A stretch of 64,000 nucleotides of DNA. It comes from a virus. Made by a program: the position numbers and the translations under genes. This document shows positions 33,367 to 51,300 of the stretch, one piece after another. The stretch is taken from IMG/VR virus record IMGVR_UViG_3300044818_000015, positions 1 to 64,000 of that record. One strand, 5' to 3'. Every line of letters starts with the position of its first letter. The stretch's first letter is position 1. The notes under the pieces were generated by a model that saw nothing but the letters and a program-made list of their open reading frames with translations, did no database searches and was not told the origin of the DNA.

Positions 33367-36300
33367 TTATTGCCCTGAAAGCCGATTCATCTGCTCGATA
33401 ACTTCCTGTTGCTGATTCAGCGGGAGCTTCGGCCAGGCGGTCCTGATCTTCTTGTTAAGAATGGGAGTGAACAGGATACGTTCCTCGGGCGTGGTAATGT
33501 CCATGATGTCGAGCGCCGACATCATGTCGAGGGACTCGAAGCCCGCGACATTCTTCGGCACCTTGGCGCGCTTGAGGGCTAGCTTCACGTCATTTGGCGA
33601 GATCACGCCCGCGGCAATCTGCTTGCCGATCAGCTCGTTGGCTTCGTCGATCTTGTCGTCGCGCACCAGGCTGGTGATCTGGTTCTTCACCTTCACGCGG
33701 TCGGCATTGGCCGCGCTCGATCGCTGCCGCGCCAGGAACTCCGCATGGTTGAGGGCGTCCCCAGGCCGGCTGAATAACTGCGGCGTTGCCAGATCCACAG
33801 CCATACGCAGCCAGTGATTCGCGGGGTCGTCGCCGTGCGGCATCAGGCCCTTGGTCAGCCCGGTCGCTTCGCCGACGTTCTCGAGGAAGCCGTTCATGGT
33901 GACAAGTGGCGCCAGGGCATGCGCCTTCGCCCAGCCAGCCATTCCCGGCTTCTGCGTTTCTACCGCTTTCATAAGTTGCGGGTTAAACTTGCCGCGATCG
34001 TCGCGCCAGCCGGTGACGTATGGCTCGGTTCCGCTGAGGCCCACCCAGGCCGCACTGAACGGAGGGCCGAGGAGCGGATGCGCCGCAGCGTTAAAGGCGC
34101 CGGCGACGGCCGCGTCCATCAACTGGTCCGTGCTGCCGCCGGCCTTGTAGGCGTCGAAGGCTCCGGAGATGCCGAGAGCGCGCGCGCCGCGCTTCACGAG
34201 CGGCGAGAAGAAGCCGATATCGATGTAGGCGTCTCCATTCGACGGCGGGCCCCACAACTGTTGGGCCAGCCAGGTGGCACGCTGCTTATCGGTCAGACGC
34301 ACGGCCAGGAGCTTCGAGTGCGGATCTTTCCATGGCGGGTCCCCGCGCATCGCTTCGTGCATGGCGATCCACAGGGCGATCAGTCCCACCGCTCCGCCGG
34401 TTATTGCCTGCAGGGCACGCAGGCCTGCGCCGCCCTTGGGCATCGGTCCGCGGCCGGTCCAGGCGTTGACGCCATTCCGCGCCATGGTCGAGCCCGCGGT
34501 GTAGAACGGGCTCCAGCCGCTTTCCTTCGCAGCGCGCTCGATGCTGCCCTGCAGGGCGCGGGTGTAGTTGCCGAGTTGGTTGACCACCAGATACAGGTCT
34601 TTCGTCGTCGCTTGCGGGTACAGTGCTTTAGCGGCGCGATACATCACCAGCCGCGCACGAATGTCGATCCCCTTGGGACCATACAGGAACGGGCCGAAGC
34701 CGAGGCTCGCCTCAACATCCCGCTTCGCTGGTCCCGGCTGCCGTAGAACCATCGCGGCAAAGTCTTCCGCCGTCTCACGCAAAGCCCGCTTAATTTCGCC
34801 GCCGAGGGTTGGCTCGACGTCCGCACCCATTTGCGCGGCGTATTCCCGGCTCTTCTTGAACCAAGACGAGGCCATCGAGCCATATTTCTCTGGCACCACC
34901 CCGAGCTTCGCCATGTCGATGATGTCCTGGACGCTCTCCTCGGTGGTCGGATTGGTGTTGATCAAATGGAAGATGGCCGCCGCCCGCTTGGTGAATGGGT
35001 TGCCGCCTGCGATCTTGCCGGCGAGACTCGTCCCAAGGAACGGGGTATTCGCCACCAGGGTGCCGATAAGGTTCGCCGAGTGGATCACCGCATCGAGCGG
35101 TCCGGCCAGCGTGAACTGAGTGATCTTGCCGATGAGACTCGCGGGGTCCGACAAGTTGAGGTTGTTCTTGTCGAGAATCGGCCGCAGCTCCTCTTCGAGC
35201 CACGCCGCGGTAACCATGTGCTGCGCCGGCACAAATACGGATCCCTGTCCTGGCGTCACAATCTGGCGGTCCGGCTTAACCTCGACCTTCACGGCCTTGT
35301 AATCTTTGCTGCGGATCGCGATCGAGTCCGGCAGGGATTCGCCGCGGCCCAACTTCCGGCCGAGCTTGTTGTCTTCGAGCGCCTGGATCAGCGCCCCCTT
35401 ATTGTTGGCGCGGAACGCCTGGCGCAGCCGGTCGGCCAGTGCCTCCATGCCGGCGTCGTAGAATTCTCCATGGCCGGTGGCGAAATAGTTGGCGATGTTG
35501 GGAGGCTTGCGATACGGGACCGCGCGCCCCCAGCGGCCCTTGGCGTTCGGTTGCTCTTCATCCAGGCGGACCAGCGGGTAATAGGTGTCAAGCGGCCCAA
35601 GGGCGTTTGAAAGCACGCCTTCGTTCTCTTCGTGATTCTCCCGTACCGCATCCTCCACCAGCGTTTTGTAGACCTTCAGGCCGCCGGCGAATCCAGCGTG
35701 TTGGGTGATGTCCTGGTACTCGGTCTCGGGCATCATCCGCGCCACGCGCGCCGCCGCCCGCTCGAAGGTGTCCACCAGAAACGCACGCAGGCCGTCCATG
35801 TCGCCGCGCTCGAGGAGCGCCGCGGCCGTCAGCGCCGGGCTCTGGATCGGCACGCCGATACTCTCCTCATGAATCGCCTGGAGGGCGTGCATGACGCTTG
35901 CGAGGAATGCCGGCAGGTCATCGTTGGTCGATTGCGCCGCGCCTTCGGCCATGTTGTCCCAGCGTCCGCGCAGGCCGCGCAGCCGCGATTCGATCAGCGA
36001 TCGCCGGAAATTGAGCCAGCTCGGCCCGTTCTTCCCTAGTGCCGCTTCGACTCGTGGCGCCGCAGCCCGCATGAGCGCCACAGTTTGCGCGCGCGACGTC
36101 GCGGTCTGTACCGCTGCCGCGTGGGCGGGATGGCTTACCTTTTCAAGCTGGGAGAGGTTGCGGACGAGCTTGTTTTTGAGCGCGCCGGTCTTCGACTGGT
36201 AGCTGGCTGGTTCGTTTAGGGCTTTGCGGCGCCGGGCAAAGGCCGGTCCGTCTTGTAGAAGAAGTGCGGCTTGTCCTCGGGATCCTCCGGCGGCATGATT

Positions 36301-39300
36301 TCCTCCATGGCTTCCGCGAGAGCTTTGGGGCCCTGTCTCGCCGCTGTCAGCCCCTTGCGGTAATTCGCCTTGAGGCGTTCCAGATCTTCGTTCTGTTTCG
36401 GCGTTAATTCCGGCACGTAGCACCGCCTCTTTCATCATGGGAGCAAGGTTTGTGATGGCTTGCTCGACTGCTTTGGCTCCATGCTGCTTGGTGAGCAACG
36501 TGAAGTAGTGCGTCCCTAACTCTACCGCTTGCGGGCGGGTAAGTCCCAGTTCTTCGTACTGGCCGCCCACCAGGTGCGTACCGATTTCGGCGGCGATCTC
36601 GTTTTCGGGGTATCCCTTGAGACGCAGTTGCACCGCTGCGTCTTGCGCGAACGGGTGATCGAGTAATTCCTGCTCGTGCTCGCCGAGGTGCCCCTCTAGC
36701 TGGTCGATACTGAGGTGCCACTTCTCATGGCGCAAGGTGGCCGCGGCGCGCTGCAGGCCCGCGCTTCCGTTGACCAGCAACACGGATTGCTCGTTAGCCC
36801 CTGCTTTTTCGAGAGCGAGCGCCAGCGCCGGATGGGTCGGCATCAGCGCTTTCACCGCCCTGACGACGTGGCGCGGGTGCAGGCGCATGCCATCGAGCGC
36901 CGGATCTCCCCAGACTTGGCCGATCGCGGTTACGTTGGCCTGGTTCGTGATCAGCTTACCGGGCTGTACGGTGATCCGCAGTGCGCCCGGGTCCGAGGTT
37001 TCGCCGTCCGGCGTGCGGGCGAACAGCGGCTGTCCCTGCATCACCGAATCCACCATGGCAGGCGTGATGTCGATCGAGTGCAACGGCTGCAGCGCGCCTG
37101 GATTATCGGTGGCTACCCTCGCGACGAAGGCCTCAGCCTGTGCGCGGGTTTCAAATTCCCTTACGGGTTCGGACAGAGTATCTTGGCTATCCAGAACGGA
37201 GAACATCTGGCCGGCTGCTCCGCCGTCCTGCTCGTCGATAAATAGGTCGCCGGCGATTGACGGTTTATTTATCTGCGTCGTCCCTACCTTCGCGTCCCAT
37301 TTTTTCCCGTACTTCTTGGCGTAGTCGACCAGTATCTTGTCGTAGAAGCCCTTCATCCCCTCGCCGCCGACTTTCAGGTCCAGGCCGGTGAAGGTTCTGG
37401 CGGCAGGGTCGCCAAAGTCCGACTTTTCACCCTCGCCCGCTACGATCCTTTGCGCCATCTCCTTGCCGACGATATCTTCGAGCCCTTCCGCCGTGACAGG
37501 TCCAGTGCGGCCGGTGTCGTAAATTGTCTCTCCGCCCTTGGCATCGACTGTAAGATCAAACGTCCCTCCTTTGGCTGGTTTTGCCCAAATGGATTCAAGT
37601 TGCTGGCTCAGGTCGTACCGGTCCGCATGCGTCTCGCCGGTGTCCCAGGCCAGCCTGTCGTAGCCGTTTTCCGCCGCATAGCGCAGCATCCGCTTGAAGG
37701 CGAGCTCGTGCCAGGTCTTGGCGAATGGTGCGGGAGGGACGCCGCTATCATTCTTGTGCACGGTGGACAGGGTGTTCGCCTTATCGATCCACTCCTCGCC
37801 GAAGTGCTCGCGGAGAGCTTCGAGCCGTTTCGCCTTACTCGCCTGCGCGGCTTTACTTGCCTGTGCGTTGGTGTCGCCCGGCCTTTCGAAAAGCCATCCG
37901 AAAGTGTAAGGGGATAGGCCGAGGTCAACGCTGTTGAGATACGCCTCTGCTTGATTGCGCAGCGCGTCCCACTGGCCTCCCTGGTAGCCCTTCTTCTTTC
38001 CTTCCTGGTGCCAGTCGCTCTGAAGTTCGTAGACGTGCAGGATCTTCTCAGGTGGGGTGTAAGGCGTTCCGTCGGCGCTGGTCCAGCGATCGCCGAAACG
38101 GACGTGCGCGAGGACGTTGGGCTCGCTCCAGTGGGAGGAGCGGTAAGTGCCCGCGGTCTGCCGGGTACGCTCCATCCCGTTGGCGTCGGTGTAAGTTTCG
38201 CTCTTCGCGCCGGGCAGTGTCAGTAGCAGCTCGCGGTAGTTCTCGCCGCCCGGGGTGACGTAGCCGCCGTACTTGGCTACAGATTCCCTGGCGGGGCCCT
38301 GGTCAAGGTCAATCTCGATGCGCTCTGCTTCGACGGCATCCTTGGCCGCAGCAATAGAGTCAAACTCGCCGAGCGAGCCATGGGTGCTCGTAAGGCTGAA
38401 GCCGTCGTATCCTTTATTGGGCGTGATAGTGTAGCGGCCTTCCGGCGTGTCGGCGATCCAGTCGGGAAGCTCTTCCTTCCACGCCGTAGGCTCGAGCTCG
38501 GCGCCTCCGCCCTTGACCACTTCCTCGACCTGCACCTCGTTCGCCTTCACGAACGCGAGCACCTGCTCCCGGGTCACCGGCCCCTTGCGCTCTTCGAGCC
38601 AGGTATCGAGTCCGGTCCATTTCAGCTCATCGGCCTTCACTCCACTCTGCGGGTTGCGCAGCATGGCCAGCAGTTGACCTGGCACGGCCGGTCCTTTCAT
38701 CTTGGCCGCGATCGCGCGCTCGAGCTGGGAATAGAAGCCCGGGGTTTTGCGGGAGTACTGCGGTGTGTCCTTGAAACGCTCGGCCTGCTCTGCGTGAAAG
38801 GCCTTCCATGCCGCCGCGTCCGCCTCATAGAATGCCTGAGCGGCTGCGGTGGAATCGTCGTCAAAGGGGCGGTCCGCTTGACTCTTCTGGAATGCCTGGA
38901 AGGCGCGGTCTCTCTCCTTCACGAACTCGTCGACGCGCCGGTGCTGCGCGTTGTTAAACTCCGCCCGGCTCGCTATTACCTTTTCGGCACGTTGCTGGCC
39001 GGTCTGTGCCGCCGCCGGCGAAAGCTCGGCCAGCGATTGCTCCAGCCGTTTGACGGCCGCAGCAGCCGCGGCGCGCTCGCCCGGTATGGTGGCGCGCTCC
39101 ATGAGTGCCTTCGCCGAGCGTAATTGATCGGTTAGCCTGGCGCGGGGGTCCTGGAGCACGCGCGAGTACTGCGGCTTGTCCGCTGCCTTCGGCTGGCGCG
39201 AGAAGAGCGGCGCCTGCTCCGGCTCCTGGCCCTGGTCGCCGAACAGGCTATCGCTGCCGCGGTCTTTCGCCGGCTTCAGCTTGGCGGGCCTGGCCGCCAT

Positions 39301-42300
39301 ACCGGATTTGACCTGCGCCGTCAGTTGCGCGCCGAGTAGCCGGTCCGCGGCCGATTGCGTCTCTGCTTGCGAGCTCGCTTCCGCCACGCGGTCCACCAGC
39401 GAGGCCTGGCCGGCGATTTCGTGCGCCTTCGCCCTGGCACGCTCCAAGGTCGGATAGATCGTAACCGTGGGCAGGGTCTGCTCGGCATCGAGGTCGCGCA
39501 GCGTGACCGCGTATCCGTTCGGATGCCTGGTGACCACGGACTCGAGGCCGTCTTCGTGGTTGGTATAGCGCGCCAACACTTCGGGCGCCTGGCGCGAGAA
39601 CTGCGGCGCATCGGGCGGCGCCTCGTCCGGCTTCACCGGATAGGCTTCGAGAATGCGATCGAGGATCGCCCCTGTCGTGTTGGGCCCGTCCCCGTCGTAC
39701 TTCCTGGGGATGTAATACACCGGCGTGATGCCCTTTTCGGAGAGAGCGCCAAGGGTCAACAGATTGCGGGCGACGTCCTGGTTTGGCGGGAATAGCTGAA
39801 TTACCTGGATCCGTCCAATGATCCCGCGGCGTACCTGGGTGTTGCCTTCGAGGGTGTAAGTCAGGTTGTTGCGCAGCACGTCGTCATGGAGCTGCTTGGC
39901 GTCGACGGTGCTCTTGCCGCCCGAAATGCGATCGAGCAAGGCGCGAATCCGCGATTCGGGAATGTCGATACCGACCACGCGCTCGGCAGTCTTCGAGTCC
40001 GCGGTGGTGTAGATGCTGTTGCGGATGAAGGCTGCATCGCGGATCGGATTCCAGAAGCGCATCACTTCGCCGCCAATCAGGTGGTGATGGGTGGTGGTGT
40101 GAGTCGGCGCCGCGTCGTAGCGCTCCTTCCAAATATCCTTGGCCCATTGCTGGGGATCCTTGGCGATGGCTTCCGCCGCGGCCAGCGGCGCCCGCTGCGC
40201 CTCCACTTCCTTGGTGCTGGCGTCAACCCGCTTGCGCTGCCAGCTATCCGCCGGCATCTCGTACGCCTTAGCCTTGGCAAGGGCAGTCTTCGCCCGTTCC
40301 AGTGCTTCCTCCCGCCGGGTGCGCGCGAAGTACTCGAAGTCCGGCGCCGCCGCCTCATCCGCGCGGCCTTGCGCATAGCTTAGATCGGATTCCGCGTCGC
40401 GCACCCTCGAGGTGCGGTTGTTGTCTTCGTCCCGCTTCAGTTGAGCCTGGTCGCGCTCGAGGTCCCGCTCCGCGCCCTTCAGCGCGTCCTGTGCCTTGCT
40501 CAATTCCTCCTTCGCCCAGGTGTCCACTTCCTTGAGGCCCTTGCCGCGCAGCTCCGCCTGCGTGACCTTGAGCCAGCGTCCGCGTTCCGGCTTGGCGGTG
40601 TAAGACGACGGTTCGACGTTTCCGTCCGCGTGCACGGTCGGCGGGGCGTCGATCACCAGATAGAGCACGCCCTTCTCGTTGCGCGCGATCGCCGCATGCC
40701 GCTTCTCGTGCTGCAGGAGGCGCTCGTCCAACTCCTCGGGCGACACGCGCTCCGTTTTGTTCTTGGCGTCAACGGGATAGTAGTAAGTCTCCGCGCCGGT
40801 CTTCGGATCTTTGGCGAGTAATCGCTGTTCCTTTACTTCGATCTCATCGCCCGGCAGGGTTTTGACGCCGGTATCGAGCGTGCCCGCGGCGATCGCCTGC
40901 TCAACGGCCGCATTAAAGATGTTGAAGAAATAGCGATACGTCGCGTTTTGAATGTCCGGATCGAGCGCCATCAGCCGGTTCAGCAGCTTGGTGACGTTCG
41001 TCATATCCGCGGGCGGGATTTCGGGCCCGCTCGAGCCGAGCTTGATTACTCTGAGATCGGTGAGAACCTGGAGGCCGCTGAGCCCGGTGCCGGGTACGGG
41101 TTGGTTGCGGAGGAGTTGGGTATAGAAGGAGTTGGTCGCGGCGCGGCCCTGCTCCGTCTCAATGTTGGCGTTCTCGCCCATGGCGGAGCCCGCCGCGGCG
41201 TTCTTCTGGCCTTTGGTCAACGCGCCGAGCGAACCCAGGCGCCGCTGAATGGTCGAAACGAACCGTTGCTCGCCCGCCAGGTCGGAAATCAGGAAGACGT
41301 ACTCGGGCGGCTGCTTCTGGTTGGTGCGGTGGGTGCGGCCCAGCATCTGCTGCGCCTTGTCCGCGGACCAGCCCGTCTGCAGGGTGATGTGATAGCGCTT
41401 TTGCTGGTTGGCGACGTCGTTGCCGGCGTGCAGCGAGATTCCGGTACCGCCCGCCGAGGAGAGCACCGCTACCCGCTTCTTGCCGCCTTGGAAGGCGCGC
41501 ATCTCGAAGAGGTTGATTTCTTTCTTCGAGGCCTTGGGGTCGCCGCGTGGTACGAACTTGCCGATGGAGCGGTCATACTTCTCTTTGCGTCCTGTGATCT
41601 CCGCGACGTGCTTGTCTCCGCCCAGGCTGTTGATCAGGATGTCGAGCGGATTCTCTGGCATGTGCAGATCGCGGTTGAGCTTCGCAATCAGCGCATCCCG
41701 GGCTTCGACGGCCGCCGGATTGACAACCGGGATCTTACGGCCCTGCTCATCGTTCCGGTAAACCGGCACTTTGATGGGGTTGCCGCTCGAGTCTACGTCG
41801 TCGGCATACTGCTGGGTCGGGTAACTCGTGAGGACCATGTTGACCAGGGCTTCCTTCGGCCCGAAGTCATACTCCGGTAAATCGTCCGGATCCTCGTCCT
41901 CGTCGCGCTGCTTGGCTTTCTCGCGATTCTGCGCCGCCTCGTTGGTGTTCACCAGCGTGATCACTACCGACTTACCCTCGGCCAGCGCCTTATTGGCGAG
42001 CTCTACCGCGGTGGGCGTCTTGAGCGCGGTAATCAGTAGACCGAAGAAGCGCTGCTGTGCGCCGCCGAACGCGGACATGAAGTTGCCGCGCTGCTGCCGG
42101 CCGCCATTGGTCGTATTGGCGATGGTGGCTTCGGCGTGCTGAATGACGGAGGCCCAGGCCTGCGTTGCGGTGCGGTACAGGTCTTTCTGTTCCTTGGATA
42201 GCTTGTGGGTCTCTGTCTCGTAAGTGACGCCCTTGTAACTCAGCGTCCGCGCCAGATACTTGCCCTGCGCCTTGAGTGAGCGGGCGATCAGCTCCATCGC

Positions 42301-45300
42301 GGCAATGCCGCCTGGCCCGATCTGCGACTGGAACTCGCCGAACCCTTGCGGGAAGGCTGTCCCTGGCCCCCACTGGCCCAGGCGATCGAGATAGCCGAGG
42401 TTGATTACATCGGTCGCGGCCGTCGCCGAGAGAGAGACCGTGCGCAGCTTCGGCATGCGCGCCAGCAACTCCTTGGCCGCTACGCCCCTCTGGCTTTCCG
42501 AGCCGCCTTGGGCGGCGACGGCCGATTTGAGATTGTGCGACTCGTCCCATAGGATGTACGCGCCTTCGCCGTCGTCATCGCCGCGTAGATACGCCTCCAT
42601 CTGGTCGATGCGGCGCTGCCCGGTCTTATTCTTGCCGGTGAGCAGGGCATAGGTCGAGAACAATACGCCGTCGTGCTCGATCTTCTTGCCGTAGCCGAAC
42701 TTACTGAACGCCTGCACGGCGGGGTTCTCGCCCATCACGTTCTTGCCGTCCTCGATGGAGATTCCGCGCGTCAAGGCGTCCGCGCCGATGTTGCGGAAGT
42801 CGTGAATGGCCGCGTCCATCAGGTCCCACTTCTCGGAGACCCAGATCAGGCGCTTCCGTCCCTGGAGATAGTTATCCCAGAGGATGCCGGCGGAAATGCG
42901 GCCTTTGCCCACACCGGTTCCGTCGCCGATCAGCGCACTGGCATAGTGCCCGCCGGGCAGGACGATGGAATTCTGCTGGCCCGCGAACGCGATCGCTTCC
43001 ATCTGCACGGCGGAGAGGCGGCCGTTTTCAAGGACCGAAGGCGGCAGGGAGGGCTTGTAGGAGATGGGTGGCGGCTTTACGGTCGCCATCGTGCGGGTTT
43101 CGACGATATCGCCGGGATGCGCCGGTCCGGCGATCGAGGGGCGGTACGGAACGAACGGGCCGTTGTCGGCTTCGGCTTCCGGTTGGGGGACTTCTTCGAG
43201 GTTCGGGCCTAGTGTGAGAGTAGACGGTCGTTCGTCATTTGAGTCCGGAGGACGGCTTTCAGGACGTTCAGCGGCGGGAGTTTCGGGATGTCCCGCAGAC
43301 TCAGTTCCGGGTTGGACTCCACCAGGTAGTTTATCGCCAGCACCGGCTTGAACTCCCGCATGCTGACTACCAGATCCTCCAGGCTTTCCGGCAGGTTTGC
43401 CCGCTCGGCCAGTTCCTCGGCCGCCCGGGTGTACTCCTGGCGGCACTGCATCATCATTGCCAGGATCTGCGCCCAGGCCAGTTCCGGACTTACCGGGCCG
43501 AGGGCCATTACCGCCTCGCGGGACAGGCTCGATTTGCGGGCGATCGGCTGCGACATCTCTAAGAAGATTGTACGCCTCCTCAAGCGTCTCAACATTTCCC
43601 TGGAGCACGGAGTCCCAGGTTTTCACCGCGCCGGGCTTCACCTGCGAGGGCGTGGCCCCGTTCTTGTCGATGACAATGATCCGCGTCGAGAACGTGGTGC
43701 CGTACTTCTGGTATTCCTTGCCGGCGATCCGGATGTTGGCGCGCACGTTGTACTGCGCCGCAATCCGCTCGAACCATTTGCCCGAGGGTCCGGTGGTGAG
43801 GTTGGCGCCGCCGTTGGTGTCGTCGGCGCGTCCGCCGCCCAGGATCACCACCAGCCGGCCGTTCGGGAGGAGACGCTGGAGCGCCTGGTCTACGTGGTTC
43901 AGCCCATAGATCGCGCGGTTTGTGGCTTCGTGCGATTTGATGGCGCTCGCCGAGAACGGCGGATTCATCAGCACCACGGTCGGACGGATGGCCGGATCGA
44001 GCAGCGCGTTGATCAGCTCGCCGTCGTGCGCGGTCGGCTTATTGAAGCCGATCAGCTCCATCATTTGGGCGCGGCGCTCGGAGACCTCGTTGACGTGGAC
44101 TTCGGCGCCAATGGCCTTCGGCCAGATAGCAATCCCGCCATTGCCGGCGGAGGGTTCGAGTACGACGTCAGTAGGAAGGATGCCGCCAACTCGGGCCACT
44201 ACATAGGATTCGGTTGGGGGCGTCGAGAATTGCTGGTTGGCCAGTTGTTCATCGGTCCGGACGCTCTGCGTGGTGACGCGCCCCAGCAGCTCGCGCAGAT
44301 CTTTCAACGCGGCGATGGGGTCCATTTCCATCAGCGCCTTGCCGCGTTCGAGCAGCAGCTTGTTGATGCCGGCTTCCATGGCATCGAAGGCGTCTTTCGG
44401 GGTCCAGTCGCCCGAGGCGCGGGATCCGCCCAGGTGGAGCTCCGCCAGCTTATTGAACTCGACGACGTTGCCGAGCGAGCCGCCGGATTTCAGCTTGTCG
44501 TAGACGGCATCGATGAGCGCTTGCGCGGGATGCGCCGCGGGCTCAGGCTCAGGCGCGCTCGTCGACACGCCATTAATCTTGCGGATATCCGCCGGTTTGA
44601 TGTAGACGGAGCGGGCCGGCTTGTCGGTGGCCGGGATGCGTACTTCAATCTCGCCGCTACTGCCGTAGATCGCGACGACATTACCCTTGTGGATGCCCTG
44701 CGGGGAATCGAAGACCACAACATCGCCCTTGTTGACGACGGGCATCGGCTTGTCGGCTTGTACTGGTTGCTGATCGCCGGACGCGGGTTTCTCGGCCGGG
44801 GGCTTCATGGGCTCCACGGTCTTGCCGTTAATCTTCGCCACGGCGACGGCGAGACGGTGCACCTGGCGCAGCGCGTCTTCCGGAGTCTGGCCGGTTTTCT
44901 TGGCGTACCACTGGATCACCGGGCCGACGTCCTCGTTCATGCGGGCGAGCCAGGCGGCTTCGTCGGTCACGCCATCGAGCATGTGCTCGGCGCCGACCGT
45001 GGCCAGATCGATGCGCGCCTGCTTGATACGCGGATCGGGCGGGGTGGTTCCGTTGGCGCCTTCGGTGCGCGAGTATTGCGGCTTGTCGGGCTTAGAATTG
45101 ACTTCGCCATCTTCGGGCGCGATATTGGAATCAGGTGCACCACTGTTCGGCGAAGGAGTTTCGCCGCTCCCTTTGCGGGGGGTTCCGGGAACACTCGTAG
45201 TCCTCCCGGAAGGCAGAGGAACTTGACCGCTGGTTCCCGGGGGAGTCGGTCCGGGACCTTTCGGGGCTTCACCAACGCGGATTCTGGTGGTGAGGGCCGG

Positions 45301-48300
45301 CGGTTCATCTTCATATACGGTAAGCAGCCATTTCTTCGCTTTCCCGTCATAGTCCAGGCGCACTGCGGCTTTGTGCCGATCGTCAAATAGCCGAATACGA
45401 TTCGCTCCTGAACGCTTTTCATCCACCTGCATCTTCGGAAAGAACTCCGGGAGCTCGGCAAGAATTGCGGTGCGGCCCTTAGCCACCAGCTTGGCGACGC
45501 CCTCTCCGTCCTCGAAGTCCTTTTCTGGCGTGCCCGACTTTCCCCAGATGATGTCCACGTCCCCGAGGCGGGGGTCCGGGTGATATAGTGCCGCTACCGC
45601 GTCACCGGTCTCATGTTCGAGGAGCCACGAGATCGCGCCTTTGGCGTCGTGGTGGAACTGCCGGAGAATCGGCCCGTGCGATCCCATTTCTGGCTGATCT
45701 GTCCTCCGCGAGTACTGTGGTTTGTCGTCTTCCTCCAGCAGCGCCTTCATGCGATCGCGCGCTTCCTTGCCGGCATCGGCGAGCGGATTGGCTTTGGCGG
45801 GCGGCGCGGCCTTCTTCGGAGCGGACGGGTGATTTGGCGGGAATTTGGATTTCGGGGCGGGGGTTGCCGTGCTTGCGTCAACGGTGACGACCTTGCCGCT
45901 GTCTCTCACGGCCAGGGTGAAGGCGGGCTCCTGGTCGCCGTGGTTGTCGATGCGCAATACCTCGCCAGAATGCGCGGTACCGCCAGGCCCGTTGAAAGTC
46001 ACCCTTCCGCCGATAGGAAACCGCTTTTCCATGTCGGCCGTAGTGGCGCGAGCCGTGCCGCGCTTCGCCGCAATTGCGGCAGCCGCGGCGTCGACGGCCT
46101 CTTGCTCTTCGTCGGAGATCTCGGGCTCGGCGGGCTTTCCGGAAGCGAGCGCCTTGAGATCGGAGATCTGGCCCCGGAGAAACTGCTTATTCTCCTCACC
46201 AGCCGCCGCGGCGTCTTCCAGAATGGATTCGGCTATGGCGATGTCACCCCGGATCTCGGCGCGGGCATCCGCCCGGGCTCCAGCCGAATCGGAGCTGAGT
46301 GTCAACTCCCACTGCTTTTGTTTCTCGAAGAGGCTGTCGATGATATTGGCGAGCGCTAATTCGGCCTCGTTTTTAGCCCTGTGTTCCTTTTGAAGCTGGT
46401 CTTCGAGATTGGCCGTGTGCTTCTTGCTGATAGGGATCTTCTCGGCGGTGGTCAGGTCTTCCGTCACTGGCGCGGGAGCCACCGGTCCGGTCTTCGGCGC
46501 TCCGAACGCCTTGGCGAATTCCTCGACCGGATCCGGTTGCTCGAAGAACGATTCCGCGGTGGAGCGTTCCACATAGGCGCGGACCATCTTGGCGATCGCG
46601 GTGCCGGAATCCTTGCGCAGGATGCCGGCCAGGTGCTCCGCCCGCGGCGTCGTCTCCGGCCGCTGGCTGCCGAACATCTCGGGCTGGTCCTTGGCAAGCT
46701 GGCTGTTGGCGTCGAATCCGTGCGCCTTCTTGTAGTCGGCCTCGTATTCGATCAGCGCCGTGGCCTGGCGGACGTCGGGTGAAAGCGTCCAATCCGGACG
46801 CGCTTCGATGATGCGCAATAGGGGGGCAATGCGCTCCAGTTTGTTGCGCAGCGCGGGGGCGATGCGCTTAAACTGGTCGCTGTCTTCGAACAGGCTGCCC
46901 ATCACCAGCTTGGCTACGCGCTCCTTGGCGGCCTTGGTGACCGCGCCGCTGGTCGAATCGAAAAGGACGGGCCGCTCCTCTTCGGTAAAAATGCCTTCGC
47001 TGATGAGCCGGTTGACGATGCTCGGGCCCATCTTCGAGTTCATGATGTCGTTGAGCGAATCATCGGGACCGAAGGATTCGAGGACGGAGGCGAGATACTT
47101 CGCCAACTCCGGGGTGATGCTGCGGGCGTCTTCCGTTGCCTGTTCGGCAGTCGAGAGCTTTGCCGTGGGTACTTTGTTGAGGTCGGCGATTGCGCGTTGC
47201 TTGTCGATAGTGTCGTCGGCGATAACGCGGAACAGGCCCGGCTTTTTGAATCCGTCTATCCCGGCGGGATCGATACCGAACATGGGGGCGCGCTTCCTGA
47301 GCCGCTCCTGGTACCGCTTGGCAAGTTCAGGAATCTTGTAGGCGCGCTTCAGGGTGATGAGCCGGTTGTTGCCACCGAGGGCGTTGCCTACGTCCTCAAT
47401 GACGGAGGGGCCGTTGATCGCGTCGGGGTTGTCATTGATGAGATAAGCCTCATCGAAGAAGGCGGGCAGGCTGTTTTGGATCGGACGGGCCCGGTTCAGC
47501 TCGTCGCTGTAATCTCGGCCGTTAACGTATGGATAGTCGGGGTCTTCTTCGAAAGTAAAAGGATCGTGGCTGGGGCGAACGTCGTCTATTTCTCGGATGG
47601 AGTAATAGGCTTCGTAGGGGAGGGCTCTTCCCTTGACACGAATTTGCGTCCGTTCGCCTTTAATCTCTTTTCGGCCTGTTGGAGGCGGTTCAGGAAGCGA
47701 TTCTCCTTCGTCTCCACGCTGTCCTCGGGCTGAACGTGTTTCATCGGATGGCTCCTCTACTATAGGCGTTTTGTCGGCTGGGGGTTTTTCTTGTATTGAA
47801 CCTTCCTCAGATGTGGCGGTCGGTCCAGCGGCTTCGGTGGTTGTGGCAGGCCGGATGCGCTCCCAGTAAACGGTGGCTTCAACGTCGTCATCGTCGAATT
47901 TGACGCGAATGCCGTCCCGCGTCTTCGTGTTGGCAAAGCGTTTGAGGTCGACCATTTTGACCACTGCCGGGCGGTCGGGCTTCTCGCCGGGGATGCTTAC
48001 CAGGACGTGCTGGCCCACCGCGAAATCGTGGATGCCGGCGGGCTTCTTCAGATCCGGATAGTCGGCCAACACTTCCGGCGGTATGGTCTCGCCAACGTTC
48101 ATTGCCTTCCGGATCGCGGCCTCATGGCGCCGGGAGAGTTCCGTTGTCGGGACGCGGGCGGCGCCGTAGCGCTCCGGATCGCGCAATTCTCCTTGAATCA
48201 TCTGCGCAAAATCGTTGCCGGGGTTGTTGTAGTCGCCGTAGGTATCAGCGAGCGCGTTATGGCGCGCAGTCGTATCGCGACTGTGGTTCAGGAGGTCGGC

Positions 48301-51300
48301 CAGTTCCCGGTAGGGCAACTCCCAGGCGTGTTTGCCCTCGGCGGCGGGCTTCTTCTGGCCGCCCCACTCGCGGCCCTTGGCGGATGGCTCAAATTCGGGG
48401 ATGCCGCCCAGCTCGGCGATGACCGCGGCGTGGTCGATCTTCTTCGCGGTGGCGCGCTTCCGGAATTCGGCGAGCTTCGCCTGCGCTTCCTCGATTCGCT
48501 TGTCGCGATCGCTGATGTTCTCCCACGTCTCCCATTCGTAGCGGCCCTGGCCGGCGAATTGGGCATCGGCCTCGCGGGCGTGCTTCAGGGAGTCCGCAAT
48601 TTTCTGGAGAGCGTTGAGCGAGAGCTTGACCGATTGTTTGACGCGCTCGGGAACTTCTTCGGGCGCGTGCTGTGGCGCTTCGGCGGGAGGCGCATCGCCG
48701 GACGCGGGCGCGGGGGTTCCGCGCTTCTTCGCGATCGCCGCGGCTGCCGCATCGATGGCTTCCTGTTCCTCTTCGGAAACTCCTGCCTCGACGGGCTTCT
48801 TGTCTGCCAGCGGGTGTTGCGGGGGAAGCGTCTGCTTCTTCGGCGGGGCGGGTGGCTTTGGCTTTACGGCGGCCTTCCAGAGGTGATCGTGCGATGGCAC
48901 CTGAATCACGCCGGGCTTGGCGTCCTTCGCGATGCCTTTGATGCTGTCTCGGACCGCCACACCACCGGTGCGGATCTCCGCTTCCTTCAGCCCGGTGTGC
49001 TGTGCGACGAAATCGACGTACTTCTGATCGTGCTTCGAGGGAGTCTTCTGAGCTGCAATGTACGCGGCCTTGTCCAGGTCGTTCTCGAATTCCAGGGTGA
49101 ACTGTTTCGGCCCGTAGCTGTAGCGCGGGGCGGCTCCCTGGAGAGCATGCGGGAGGATGGCGGGAGTTGCAGATTGTGGCTGTTCAGCCACATTACTTAC
49201 TTGACTAAGCTCTGGTTTTTCTTCGGGCGCCGGCGTCTCGTTTTGGAGGGGAGGCACATCGCCGGACGACGGCTGCGCTTCCGCCGCGGGCTTCCCTGTT
49301 AGCGGGATTTCGACTATCTTGCCGTCTTTTCCGCTGAACGTGAGCGAATCGAGGGTGATCGTTCGTCCGGTGACGTTGCGAATGATGCTCCCGTCGTATA
49401 ACTCGCGGTGTGTCCCTGGCTTCAGGTAGGCGATGGTGACGTGTGGCTTATAAGTGGGGAATGTGTTGCCGGTGTGGTCGACGGCATCGCCGACCAGCTT
49501 ATTCAGCTCGTGCAGCTCGGGCGAGTCTACGTCTACCTTGAGGACGTCCGGTCCGCCGTCCGTACCCTTAAATATGGAGGTCTTGCCGAAGGTGACGGTG
49601 ATCGGTCCTTGCCCTTTCAGAATTTCCTGAATCGGAGTGGGGTCCGCGCTGGGGTTGCCGTATTTGACGGTGACGTGTATTTCCTTCTCGCGGCCGTCGC
49701 TGGCGTCGCCTCCGGTTTTCTCCCCTGCTTCAACGTGTAAATGCTCATCGGGGATGGCGGCGCCGAACTTGCGCACTGCATCCGCGATATCCTCCGGCAT
49801 GTTGACCTGGGTAGAAGAGTAGTCGTGAGTTTGAGGGGCAGTATCATCATTTGATACCGGCGCTGCTTTCTCTTCGGGCGCGGGCTTCGGCTTGCCGGCC
49901 GCGGGCCGCGCCATGGCGGCGTCCACGTCGGCACGCAGGGCATTGTCGAGCGATTCGTATGGTTTACCGTGCCGCGCCATCGCAACGCGATCGCGGGCGA
50001 TGCTCTCCGGCGTTGCTTCGGGCGCGGCAGCCGCGGGTTTCGGCGGCACGTCGTCGGCACCGTCATCCGGCTTCGGCGGTTTCGGTGGCACGTCATCCGG
50101 CTTCGGTGGTTTCGGCGGAACATCATCGGGCTTTGGCGGTTTCGGCGGAACGTCCCTCTTGCCGGTCCGTTGGAATTCCTTCTCGAGAATGGAATACGCC
50201 GCTTGGTTGCGCCGGAAGATAGCCGGGTCGACGCCGGGGTTTCTGTCCGGATGGGACGCCATCGCGGCCTTGCGGTACGCGGCGCGCACCTCTTCGAACG
50301 TCGCGTTTCGGTCGACGCCTAGAATATCGCGGGCTTGGTCCTGGGAAAACTCCGGAGATCCGCGGGGCCGTCTCTGTCGCCGGGCGTCATCCTCCTCACG
50401 CTGGCGCTTTTGCCGGGCTTCTGATTCCTCACGTTCGCGCTTGAGTTTGGCTTCATATTCCGCTCGCCTTCGCGCGGAGGCATCTGCGCTTTGGTCCGGA
50501 GGTGGCTTCTTGGTGCCATCGCGTGCGGCCGTTGTCTCCTCATACATCTGCCACATGCGTTCGTCGGTGTACTGGTGGCCGCTGGCGGGGTCTTCCCACA
50601 TCCCTTGCGCGTTTTTCTTATAGAGGTTGTCGCGCCATGTCTCGTAGGGGCCGGGCTTGTAGCCGTCGTCGGGTGGGGGCTTCTTGGGTCCGCCGCCGCC
50701 TTCCCGCTTAAACTTCTCAAAGAGGGACTCTTCGTCAAATTCATTGCCGTTAGTTCGGTCCTTTGACTGCCAGCGATCTTCGGTACCGTGTTGCTCGTAA
50801 AACTTGTCTCGCCACGCATTAAATTCTGGGTCGGGGGCGCCGCCCCTTTGCTCGCTGCGTCCATGGGTGCCAAAGCGTTGGTTATACTCAGCGTGCAGCG
50901 CTTCATCGGTGAAGGTGTTGCCCGCAGTGTCTTCCCAAGTGCCTTGCGCCGTCTGCTTGTAGTTCTTATTGCGCCAGTCTGAGTAGAAGTTTCTAAATCG
51001 GTTGGGGCCCGTGCCGTGGGAGCCAGGGTCGCCGCTATCCGGTGGGGGCTCGTCAACGATTTTCTCTGCTTCGCCGGGCTTGAACTTGAAATTGAAGATG
51101 TCGCCGAGTTTCTTCTCGATGGCGGTAAGCACCTTTTCGCGGTATTCCGGACCGGCCGCGTGGACAAAGGGCAACAGGGTCATGGCGGCATGGCCCACCA
51201 GGTCGCCGGCCGTGGCTGGCGACGGGTCTTGCTTGAAGCGCTCATACACTTCAGGTAGGTCTTTCGCCATAGTGGTGGCGAAATATGCATCGACGCCCGC

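What the first reader, a model, noticed from the sequence alone, without database searches (positions are those of the whole stretch)
45098..45690. Antisense promoter and two tandem four-way-junction RNAs beside a PBECR RNase domain: candidate RNA antitoxin hidden inside a virion gene
Seen: just 3' of the PBECR-type RNase coding segment (about 45310-45690, minus strand), the + strand has TTGACT-17-GATATT followed by two units about 87 nt apart with the same fold but divergent sequence. Unit 1: closing stem 45140-47/45212-19, hairpins 45148-66, 45167-81, 45183-45211. Unit 2: closing stem 45226-35/45295-304, hairpins 45236-55, 45257-66 (UUCG loop), 45268-94. Both close with tandem U-G pairs (possible only on the + strand), both have GGAGU in loop 1, and both have a 13-nt loop 3 starting AC. 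Loop 1 can pair with loop 3 in both (GAGU/ACUC; GAGUC/GAUUC). Established: PBECR domains belong to the barnase/EndoU/colicin E5-D/RelE RNase superfamily; type III toxin-antitoxin systems use tandem structured RNA repeats as antitoxins. Inference: a tRNA-like decoy RNA neutralises the RNase in the producing cell, while the injected protein arrives in a new cell without it.
Basis: partly seen in the sequence, partly recalled or inferred. Interest (0 to 1): 0.88.

Follow-up and report, generated by a model that had tools for sequence, protein, structure and literature searches.

The report
Antisense structured-RNA gene behind RNase domain
Inside a giant phage virion-protein gene, on the opposite strand just behind an RNase-like domain, lies what looks like a real small structured RNA gene in two tandem copies; hundreds of related RNase domains in phages and bacteria keep the same RNA, so it is probably that domain's built-in RNA partner.

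Summary

From the window alone they are not significant: fold z-scores are about -2, as in 5% of the gene, and synonymous recoding folds as well.

The comparative evidence is strong.
- I fetched 159 loci with PBECR1 domains.
- A sigma70-like antisense site lies 120-149 nt behind the domain in 22 of 55 sequence clusters. Recoding the same peptides predicts 4.2.
- Downstream lies a closing stem, two or three hairpins and a U-run.
- Covariation is heavy: 88% of cells paired against 57% when shuffled, and 13 of 13 pairs compensated.
- G-U wobbles favour the antisense strand, synonymous sites in the loops are frozen, and a loop-loop pairing covaries.
- Models built without the window pick unit 2 (E=0.006) and unit 1 (E=2e-11) as their best hits in the window.
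- The window and its closest relative carry an 87-nt tandem duplication of the module.

No Rfam family matched, and four searches of the held paper library found no description. Earlier notes of this scan reported the same kind of element on other DNA.

Function is untested and I found no RNA data. An RNA antidote or partner of the RNase domain is the leading reading, and a cis-antisense regulator is the main rival. The window's domain has Arg where relatives have a near-invariant His.

The parts
33367..52992 (-). Giant 6541-residue polyvalent virion/ejection-type protein gene that contains everything below
   Evidence: ORF list and translation. Pfam finds DnaJ, 2H/Acb1-like, ddrB-ParB, and AAA_34 plus Helicase_C_4. 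The record is a 90,044-bp virus genome with direct terminal repeats. Neighbouring genes include an SU10 adaptor and a beta-helix fibre.
45319..45690 (-). PBECR1-type (BECR-fold, predicted RNase) domain coding segment, ending with the invariant WLLT motif (45319-45330)
   Evidence: PF18809 matches at E=2.1e-4, 22.2 bits, below the 27.6-bit cut-off. All 32 of 32 aligned relatives match PF18809, best E 2e-16. Thr of WLLT is present in 32 of 32. The K-x-H-P-E His is Arg here, in KGR at 45472-45480.
45094..45318 (-). Pro/Gly/Ser/Thr-rich tail (linker) of the domain; its codons are the reverse complement of the RNA gene. It contains a 29-residue tandem duplication.
   Evidence: Translation. The tail peptide is conserved across the family. 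Duplication. Homology with the relative L002 covers residues 104-302 of P0001, which is nt 45094-45690, and nothing outside that range.
45098..45126 (+). Sigma70-like promoter: -35 TTGACT (45098-45103), 17-nt spacer, -10 GATATT (45121-45126). Inferred start near 45133.
   Evidence: The homologous sites are TTGACC-17-CATACT in L002 and TTGACT-17-GATAGT in L004. Family-wide positional enrichment exceeds what the peptide predicts.
45137..45221 (+). RNA unit 1: P1 45140-47/45212-19, P2 45148-66 (loop GGAGU), P2b 45167-81, P3 45183-45211 (loop ACACUCGUAGUCCU)
   Evidence: The minimum-energy fold is the four-way junction. Model R2, built without the window, hits here at 51.9 bits, E=1.8e-11, the best hit in 64 kb. 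There are compensatory changes against L002/L007 in P2 and P3.
45224..45306 (+). RNA unit 2: P1 45226-35/45295-304, P2 45236-55 (loop GGGAGUCGGU), P2b 45257-66 (UUCG loop), P3 45268-94 (loop ACGCGGAUUCUGG)
   Evidence: Model R1, built from 27 distant relatives, hits 45224-45320 at 19.5 bits, E=0.006, the best hit in 64 kb. All three stems differ in sequence from L007 unit 2 but still pair. The four-way fold is not the minimum-energy fold.
45305..45320 (+). U-rich stretch (UUCAUCUUCAUAU) at the position of the family's U-run. A weak or doubtful terminator; the 3' end of the RNA is not known.
   Evidence: R1 aligns it to the consensus U-run. The scan finds no terminator here. In relatives a run of at least 6 T in 8 follows P3 in 55 of 72.
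45706..45720 (-). PQYSR motif at the N-terminal edge of the module. A second copy lies at 45067-45081, at the C-terminal edge.

Best explanation
Positions 45098 to about 45320 on the + strand are a small non-coding RNA gene written backwards into the linker that follows a PBECR1 RNase-like domain.

Anatomy:
- A host-type (sigma70-like) promoter starts transcription near 45133.
- The RNA contains two tandem copies of one module: closing stem P1, hairpin P2, short hairpin P2b, hairpin P3, and a P2-loop to P3-loop contact.
- It ends, poorly defined, in the U-rich reverse complement of the codons just after the domain.
- Domain, tail and RNA gene with its promoter form one cassette (45094-45690) that moves between otherwise unrelated polyvalent proteins.

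Shown by comparison with relatives:
- The module and the promoter-like site are conserved at the nucleotide level across phyla, with covariation on the antisense strand.

Inferred:
- The RNA is made.
- Its compact, sequence-specific fold binds the PBECR1 domain and keeps it harmless or regulated in the cell that carries or produces the phage.
- Protein injected into a new cell arrives without the RNA, until the incoming DNA makes more.

Odds: that the RNA gene is real, about 0.85. That it acts by direct binding as an antidote or partner of the domain, about 0.4.
For: Promoter-like site:
- It lies at offset 120-149 nt behind the WLLT motif in 33 of 119 distinct tails.
- By cluster it is present in 22 of 55 clusters at 70% identity, against 4.2 expected from synonymous recoding. 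Three control peaks elsewhere match expectation: 2/58 against 1.4, 2/61 against 2.5, 3/61 against 2.3.
- High-GC members build the -10 from rare codons such as AGT ATA and ATT GTA.
- The window, L007 and L013 sites lie at offset 217-220, about 87 nt beyond the family's usual 120-149. In the window and L007 the extra length matches the 87-nt duplication.

Structure:
- On a MAFFT alignment of 27 seeds that did not include the window, all 13 predicted pairs show compensatory changes.
- On 72 model-aligned genome loci, 88.0% of cells pair, against 57.3% when shuffled (0 of 500 shuffles as high) and 37-51% when partners are slid. The covariation score is 0.782 against 0.231.
- The closing stem is 8.9 bp within a locus against 5.5 bp between loci. 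A U-run is present in 55 of 72.
- On a MAFFT alignment of 12 sequences of the window's sub-family (window left out), 89.0% pair against 73.7% shuffled, and 15 of 23 pairs are compensated.

Strand:
- 75 G-U/U-G cells against 17 A-C/C-A cells.
- One G-U pair is kept in 10 of 12 sequences.

Sequence-specific loops:
- In 63 tails with the xDTAx motif, Asp is GAC in 63 of 63 (31 expected), Ala is GCT in 63 of 63 (15 expected), and Thr is ACA in 37 of 63 (13.8 expected).
- A loop-loop contact covaries: pair (20,87) is U-A 31, G-C 26; pair (19,88) has four pair types.

The window itself:
- R1 and R2 each rank this site first in 64 kb.
- The stems of both units changed against L007 but still pair.

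Linkage to the domain:
- Homology with L002 spans only 45094-45690.
- In 5 whole genomes all 6 R1 hits lie at PBECR1 genes.
Against: - No transcript has been seen.
- The window's promoter-like site is a 9 of 12 match, of the kind chance gives 3 times in this gene.
- There is no clean terminator in the window.
- Folding statistics from the window alone are not significant.
- Model hits across the loci are expected from protein homology alone. Alignment A6 was fitted to the model, which favours pairing.
- I picked the model seeds by eye from tails with good promoter-like sites.
- The predicted catalytic His is Arg in the window and L007. The domain may therefore not be toxic here, which weakens the need for an antidote, although both RNA units are still maintained.
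- Nothing tested here shows that RNA and protein bind.
Confidence: 0.45

Rival explanations
1. The RNA is real but works as a cis-antisense regulator, like lambda OOP or the 3'-overlapping type I antitoxin RNAs. It pairs with the giant gene's mRNA over the tail of the PBECR1 module, starting through loop-loop kissing. This triggers cleavage or blocks translation, so the effector is not made from a prophage or too early in infection.
For: - The RNA is perfectly complementary to the mRNA by construction.
- It is convergent with and nested in the gene, and has its own promoter and U-run.
- Exposed, conserved hairpin loops are typical of antisense RNAs that start pairing by kissing (own knowledge).
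- No stand-alone copies were found in 5 genomes.
- The RNA is retained where the catalytic His is lost. That fits regulation of the whole gene better than neutralising an RNase.
Against: - A cis-antisense RNA does not need conserved loop sequences, because its target is always complementary. Yet loop nucleotides, including synonymous sites, are frozen across phyla.
- An intramolecular loop-loop contact covaries, which points to a defined three-dimensional fold.
- The RNA follows the PBECR1 domain, not the gene: it moves with the domain between different proteins, and each of two tandem domains has its own copy (L023, L109, L133).
Confidence: 0.28
2. The RNA is real but has another role tied to the domain. 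It could be a cofactor, guide or cargo that the PBECR1 domain binds and carries into the virion. It could be a decoy for a host defence. Or the element could act as folded single-stranded DNA or within the sense mRNA.
For: - The elaborate conserved fold and sequence-specific loops.
- Iyer et al. 2017 (passages read) propose RNA binding for inactive PBECR domains such as that of Mu MuF. The window's domain lacks the His.
Against: - The sense-mRNA reading is disfavoured by the wobble asymmetry, 75 against 17, and by the promoter-like site and U-run lying on the antisense strand.
- A single-stranded DNA role does not explain the promoter hexamers.
- No data bear on packaging of the RNA.
Confidence: 0.17
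3. There is no functional element in the window. The hairpins are by-products of CCN/GGN codons in a duplicated Pro/Gly-rich linker, and the hexamers are by-products of a conserved N-I...V-N peptide.
For: - Recoded sequences for the same peptide fold as well.
- z of about -2 is common in the gene.
- The hexamers overlie a peptide motif conserved in distant proteins.
- The promoter match is only 9 of 12.
Against: - The peptide and codon usage predict the site in 4.2 clusters, and 22 of 55 have it.
- The stems covary strongly while the peptides vary.
- Synonymous sites are frozen.
- The window's stems changed against L007 but keep pairing.
- Independent models rank this site first in the window.
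Confidence: 0.1

Closest known systems
Phage lambda OOP RNA / cII, and similar short phage countertranscripts such as P22 sar
   Same: A short RNA with its own constitutive-type promoter and a hairpin plus U-run. It is transcribed antisense across the 3' part of a phage coding region.
   Different: - OOP is a simple hairpin RNA at the end of a gene. Here the RNA is a pseudoknotted three- or four-way junction with conserved loops.
- It lies wholly inside a 19.6-kb gene, is tied to one protein domain rather than to a gene, is spread over many phyla, and is duplicated in tandem in this window.
Type I toxin-antitoxin pairs with convergent or overlapping antisense RNAs: txpA/RatA, bsrG/SR4, symE/SymR, ralR/RalA (own knowledge)
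   Same: An antisense RNA overlaps the coding region of a potentially toxic product. SymE and RalR are nuclease-type toxins.
   Different: - The 'toxin' here is one domain of a polyvalent virion protein, not a small separate gene.
- Conserved loop sequence and a tertiary contact suggest more than duplex formation.
- No effect on the mRNA has been tested.
Type III toxin-antitoxin systems: ToxIN, CptIN, TenpIN (own knowledge)
   Same: A structured, pseudoknotted RNA, sometimes in tandem repeats, partnered with an endoribonuclease and lacking a protein antitoxin.
   Different: - Type III antitoxin RNA lies upstream of the toxin on the same strand and is cut out of a repeat array by the toxin. Here the RNA is antisense and nested in the toxin's own tail codons.
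- It is usually a single unit of about 95 nt.
- The toxin folds differ: BECR here, against the ToxN/Kid-like fold.
PBECR1 domains of polyvalent proteins (Iyer et al. 2017, PMC5512222; passages read)
   Same: The protein side is this family: a predicted metal-independent RNase domain in large virion-packaged proteins of phages and mobile elements.
   Different: The paper does not contain the word 'antisense' (0 occurrences) and describes no RNA partner. Its supplements and figures were not seen.

Membership tests
PBECR1 (Pfam PF18809) | Profile match above the curated cut-off | tested here: inconclusive
   The window scores 20.7-22.2 bits against a cut-off of 27.6. It is 35-70% identical to 31 aligned relatives, and all 32 of 32 sequences match PF18809 at E<=0.001, best 2e-16.
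PBECR1 (Pfam PF18809) | Active-site His in the N-terminal helix of the BECR core (Iyer 2017) | tested here: not met
   The K-x-H-P-E column is His in 29 of 32, Arg in the window and L007, Tyr in 1. That this His is the catalytic one is my inference from the text, because Fig. 3D was not visible. The paper says one PBECR family has Arg at that place.
PBECR1 (Pfam PF18809) | Ser/Thr in strand 4 | tested here: met
   Thr of WLLT is present in 32 of 32, the window included.
PBECR1-tail antisense RNA (defined here; not in Rfam) | Sigma70-like site on the antisense strand just beyond the tail | tested here: met
   45098-45126. It is homologous to the sites in L002 and L004 and to the family peak.
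PBECR1-tail antisense RNA (defined here; not in Rfam) | P1-P2-(P2b)-P3 fold recognised by covariance models built without the window | tested here: met
   R2 hits unit 1 at E=1.8e-11. R1 hits unit 2 at E=0.006. R2 includes the close relative L007, so its hit is not independent of that relative.
PBECR1-tail antisense RNA (defined here; not in Rfam) | U-run directly after P1 | tested here: inconclusive
   Relatives have it in 55 of 72. The window has only UUCAUCUUCAUAU, and the scan calls no terminator there.
Type III toxin-antitoxin | Antitoxin RNA repeats upstream of the toxin gene on the same strand | tested here: not met
   The RNA is antisense and lies inside the gene. There are two units here and one in most relatives.
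Type III toxin-antitoxin | The toxin binds and processes the RNA | not testable with these tools
Type I toxin-antitoxin | Antisense RNA overlapping the toxin mRNA | tested here: met
   The overlap is complete by position.
Type I toxin-antitoxin | Small, usually hydrophobic toxin gene whose mRNA is repressed by the RNA | tested here: not met
   The partner is a domain of a 6541-residue protein. Repression was not tested.
Any Rfam 15 family, including skipping-rope and STAXI | Covariance-model match | tested here: not met
   No match at E<=10 in 44500-46000, nor at E<=1 in 7 canonical loci.
tRNA / tRNA-like | Recognised as a tRNA or tmRNA | tested here: not met
   ARAGORN finds none in the window.

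The most novel reading that the evidence does not exclude
PBECR1 RNase domains carry their own RNA antidote, encoded on the opposite strand of their own tail codons. Effector and inhibitor would then be one indivisible DNA cassette that recombines as a unit between polyvalent proteins. The pseudoknotted RNA binds and silences the RNase wherever the element's DNA is present, while the protein injected from the virion is free to act until the incoming genome makes the RNA again. This would be a new class of RNA antitoxin: type III-like in mechanism, antisense-nested in layout. It would also be a built-in timer for an injected phage weapon. In addition, the conserved 'linker' peptide would be largely a passenger of RNA constraints.
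Probability: 0.35. Interest if true: 0.9.

Novelty: new variant of a known kind. Interest (0 to 1): 0.78.

Why it matters
- Gene finders and RNA-motif surveys that look only between genes cannot see an RNA gene nested antisense in a coding region. This one appears to be widespread: 74 of 80 viral loci and 69 of 79 genome loci that I fetched with PBECR1 domains have the module, including cultivable phages such as Bordetella BPP-1 and Pseudomonas Itty13.
- It offers a testable answer to how phages tolerate making RNase effectors that they package into virions.
- It explains why a 'flexible linker' is conserved down to its synonymous sites.
- It shows that the domain cassettes of polyvalent proteins can carry non-coding partners when they shuffle.
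- It also warns against reading conserved linker peptides as protein motifs.

Tried and rejected
Readings I tested and gave up:
- My first reading was that the hairpins are by-products of a Pro/Gly-rich duplicated linker and the hexamers by-products of an N-I...V-N peptide. Window-only tests fitted this. The family data overturned it.
- An overlapping antisense protein gene. None of the three antisense frames is kept open; in low-GC loci there are 4.9-8.4 stops per 540 nt on average.
- A tRNA-like gene. ARAGORN finds none.
- A known RNA family. Rfam gives nothing.

Searches that gave nothing useful:
- Nucleotide relatives in the phage and plasmid collections: none.
- A pattern scan of viral contigs found only the one close relative.
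- The metagenome scan added one distant locus.
- The look-up of sequencing runs: no RNA holder listed; 2 DNA soil runs, one of them a possible source of this DNA.
- Read laying on those contigs gave only near-identical fragments and one low-depth variant piece.
- A profile search of solved structures gave only a chance hit at E=0.71.
- Middle-hairpin tetraloops: only 18 of 72 family members have a 4-nt-loop hairpin there, 6 of them GNRA and 1 UNCG. I make no claim from this.
- The fourth proposed loop-loop pair (22,85) is not supported: 24 of 70.

Literature. I searched 'PBECR', 'polyvalent protein' + 'antisense RNA' + 'phage', 'antisense' + 'small RNA' + 'MuF' + 'toxin', and 'RNA antitoxin' + 'BECR'. 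I read only listings and abstracts, plus passages of PMC5512222 and of the BECR preprint. None describes such an RNA.

Rows dropped:
- The scripts removed duplicate tails (identical first 200 nt), tails with under 270 nt of sequence, and tails with N.
- One search also dropped tails with a stop in the first 70 residues. That removed L148 and L155, both of which have strong sites.
- This reduced 153 domain copies to 118-119 and to 107-116.
- I chose the seeds of A5 by eye from the 39 tails with at least 9 of 12 promoter matches. L040 was listed but left out of A5.
- A6 holds only the 72 hits of the genome loci, not the 75 viral hits.
- R1 did not hit L007, the window's closest relative, at E<=0.01.

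Full report
**Setting.** The window is the first 64 kb of a 90,044-bp virus record with direct terminal repeats. The finding lies wholly inside one minus-strand ORF, 33367-52992, of 6541 residues. Pfam finds DnaJ, 2H/Acb1-like, ddrB-ParB and Strawberry-notch helicase domains in it. Virion genes lie nearby, including an SU10 adaptor and a beta-helix fibre. This is a 'polyvalent protein' in the sense of Iyer et al. 2017 (PMC5512222; passages read). Residues encoded by 45319-45690 match Pfam PBECR1 below threshold: 22.2 bits against 27.6. They are 35-70% identical to 31 aligned relatives, and all 32 of 32 aligned sequences hit PF18809. Positions 45094-45318 encode a Pro/Gly/Ser/Thr-rich tail.

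**The observation.** The promoter-like site TTGACT-17-GATATT lies at 45098-45126 on the + strand.
That fold costs -32.4 to -38.1 kcal/mol against -43.5 for the minimum.
- The units are 87 nt apart, 40 of 87 positions are identical, and they encode a decayed 29-residue duplication.

Taken alone, none of this exceeds chance:
- The 178-nt stretch has z=-1.16.
- 5.3% of 489 + strand windows of the gene reach z<=-2.
- Sequences encoding the same peptide with the gene's codon usage fold better than the native one, z=+1.69.
- The giant gene has 3 promoter-like sites against 3.0 expected.

At this point I read the element as a by-product of a P/G-rich linker.

**What changed that reading.** The one close relative (L002, also held as L007) is 68% identical in protein, and only over residues 104-302 of P0001, which is nt 45094-45690. 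Its only promoter-like site in 3.6 kb is at the homologous antisense place. The same holds for a 40%-identical relative, L004. The hexamers overlie a peptide motif, N-I...V-N, that distant proteins also keep. I therefore had to separate peptide from nucleotide constraint.

I fetched 159 PBECR1 loci: 80 viral and 79 from genomes of many phyla, with GC from 0.32 to 0.71.
- Antisense promoter-like sites pile up 120-149 nt behind the WLLT motif, in 33 of 119 distinct tails.
- Recoding each tail synonymously with its own ORF's codon usage predicts 4.5 +/- 2.0 tails against 28 of 107 observed.
- By clusters at 70% identity the prediction is 4.2 against 22 of 55 observed.
- Three other positional peaks, used as controls, match their expectation.
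- High-GC members make the -10 from rare codons such as AGT ATA, AAT ATA and ATT GTA.
- The sites of the window, L007 and L013 lie at offset 217-220, about 87 nt beyond the family's usual 120-149. In the window and L007 the extra length matches the 87-nt duplication.

**The RNA.** Downstream of the -10, relatives fold into a closing stem, two or three hairpins and a U-run made from the reverse complement of the F-E-K codons. The whole is about 85-100 nt.
- On a plain MAFFT alignment of 27 seeds that I chose by eye (window, L007 and L013 not included), RNAalifold finds two hairpins, and all 13 pairs show compensatory changes.
- Model R1, built from these seeds, hits 74 of 80 viral loci and 69 of 79 genome loci, always antisense and directly behind the domain. 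Protein homology alone would give such hits.
- On the 72 model-aligned genome hits, 88.0% of cells pair, against 57.3% shuffled (0 of 500) and 37-51% with slid partners. The covariation score is 0.782 against 0.231, and 312 cells are double changes against 97. That alignment is fitted to the model.
- The closing stem, which is not in the model, averages 8.9 bp within a locus against 5.5 bp between loci. A U-run of at least 6 T in 8 follows in 55 of 72.
- G-U/U-G cells outnumber A-C/C-A cells 75 to 17, so the antisense strand is the one that folds.
- Loop nucleotides are frozen at synonymous sites. In 63 xDTAx tails, GAC occurs in 63 of 63, GCT in 63 of 63 (15 expected), and ACA in 37 of 63 (13.8 expected).
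- The 5' part of the P2 loop covaries with the 3' end of the P3 loop: pair (20,87) is U-A 31, G-C 26, U-G 4; pair (19,88) has four pair types; pair (21,86) is A-U 60. A fourth pair is not supported.
- No antisense frame is kept open.
- Rfam has no match.

**The window within the family.**
- R1 ranks 45224-45320 (+), which is unit 2 plus the U-rich stretch, first in 64 kb on both strands (19.5 bits, E=0.006).
- A model of the window's own sub-family (R2) was built from a MAFFT alignment of 12 sequences without the window. On that alignment 89.0% of cells pair against 73.7% shuffled, 15 of 23 pairs are compensated, and one G-U is kept in 10 of 12.
- R2 ranks 45137-45221 (+), unit 1, first (51.9 bits, E=1.8e-11). 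It finds nothing else in the 90-kb genome below E=0.3. R2 includes L007's units, so this hit is not independent of that relative.
- Between the window and L007, the stems of unit 1 carry compensatory changes. All three stems of unit 2 have different sequences but still pair, and L007's units fold as four-way junctions by minimum energy.
- Tandem duplication of the module also occurs in L111, which has two R1 hits.
- The window lacks a clean U-run, so its 3' end is uncertain.

**Linkage.**
- The block shared with L002 is exactly domain plus tail plus promoter.
- Loci with two PBECR1 domains have two RNA hits: L023, L109 and L133.
- In 5 whole genomes all 6 R1 hits sit at PBECR1 genes.
- Named carriers include Bordetella phage BPP-1 (bbp10) and Pseudomonas phage Itty13. 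No RNA is annotated in either.

**Mechanism.** Shown: a nucleotide-level, strand-specific, covarying structure with a promoter-like site and a U-run, inseparable from PBECR1. Inferred: that it is transcribed.
- For function I favour an RNA that binds the domain as an antidote or partner. Frozen loop sequence and a tertiary contact point to a defined three-dimensional fold read by a conserved partner, and the only constant partner is the domain.
- The main rival is a cis-antisense regulator of the OOP or type I kind.
- The window's domain has Arg where 29 of 32 relatives have the His of the K-x-H-P-E helix. [quoted passage not shown] Both RNA units are still maintained here. That weakens a pure 'antitoxin to an active RNase' reading for this phage.

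**Known or new.**
- No Rfam family matches, and none of the four literature searches turned up such an RNA. Iyer et al. never use the word 'antisense'.
- Earlier notes of this scan describe the same kind of element on other genomes, for example e1-5924176 and e1-5749456. My tests here agree with them. I had found the promoter clustering before reading those notes. The promoter-hairpin-terminator reading came after.

Noticed in passing
window 45706-45720, 45067-45081 and further sites in 33766-45720 (minus strand): P-Q-Y-S-R-like motifs sit at module boundaries of the giant protein and bracket the PBECR1-plus-tail module exactly. They may be processing sites for the protein's own HExxH peptidase. 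The + strand terminator-like hairpin at 45706-45720 is simply the reverse complement of one such motif.
   Followed up: partly
L034, L036-L039, L045, L057, L077, L113 (tails after PBECR1): In one sub-group the tail runs straight into a conserved '...FYQ...LLKNADLSTFLHESGHFFLE' segment, an HExxH metallopeptidase-like domain. There the -10 of the antisense site is built from the rare codons ATT GTA (I-V).
   Followed up: no
L111:1562-1772 (minus strand); L015 tail: An apparently independent tandem duplication of the RNA module and of its peptide (GARTDT...DDTASR twice), in a lineage other than the window's. L015's tail peptide also looks duplicated.
   Followed up: partly
L175 (Pseudomonas phage Itty13, NC_070969.1 5845-11201): The annotated CDSs (gp02, gp03) lie on the strand opposite to the PBECR1 tblastn match and to the giant-gene reading frame. 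This may be a mis-annotation of that region.
   Followed up: no
L170 (second R1 hit in the genome that holds L112, record title Oligella sp.): Here PBECR1 is the N-terminal domain of a 572-residue head-associated protein next to a 264-residue upstream gene that I took, untested, for a MuF-like head gene. It still carries the antisense RNA module (60.8 bits).
   Followed up: partly
window 46031-46115 (+): A weak R1 match (E=0.46) lies in another linker of the giant gene, encoding ...AAKRGTARATTAD.... It is probably chance. A similar peptide (AIAKKRGTPAPASGD) occurs a second time in the protein.
   Followed up: no
window 49290-49830 (minus strand): A 2H phosphoesterase segment matches both 2_5_RNA_ligase2 (29.8 bits, cut-off 27) and Acb1 (22.9 bits, cut-off 27) in the same giant protein.
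   Followed up: no
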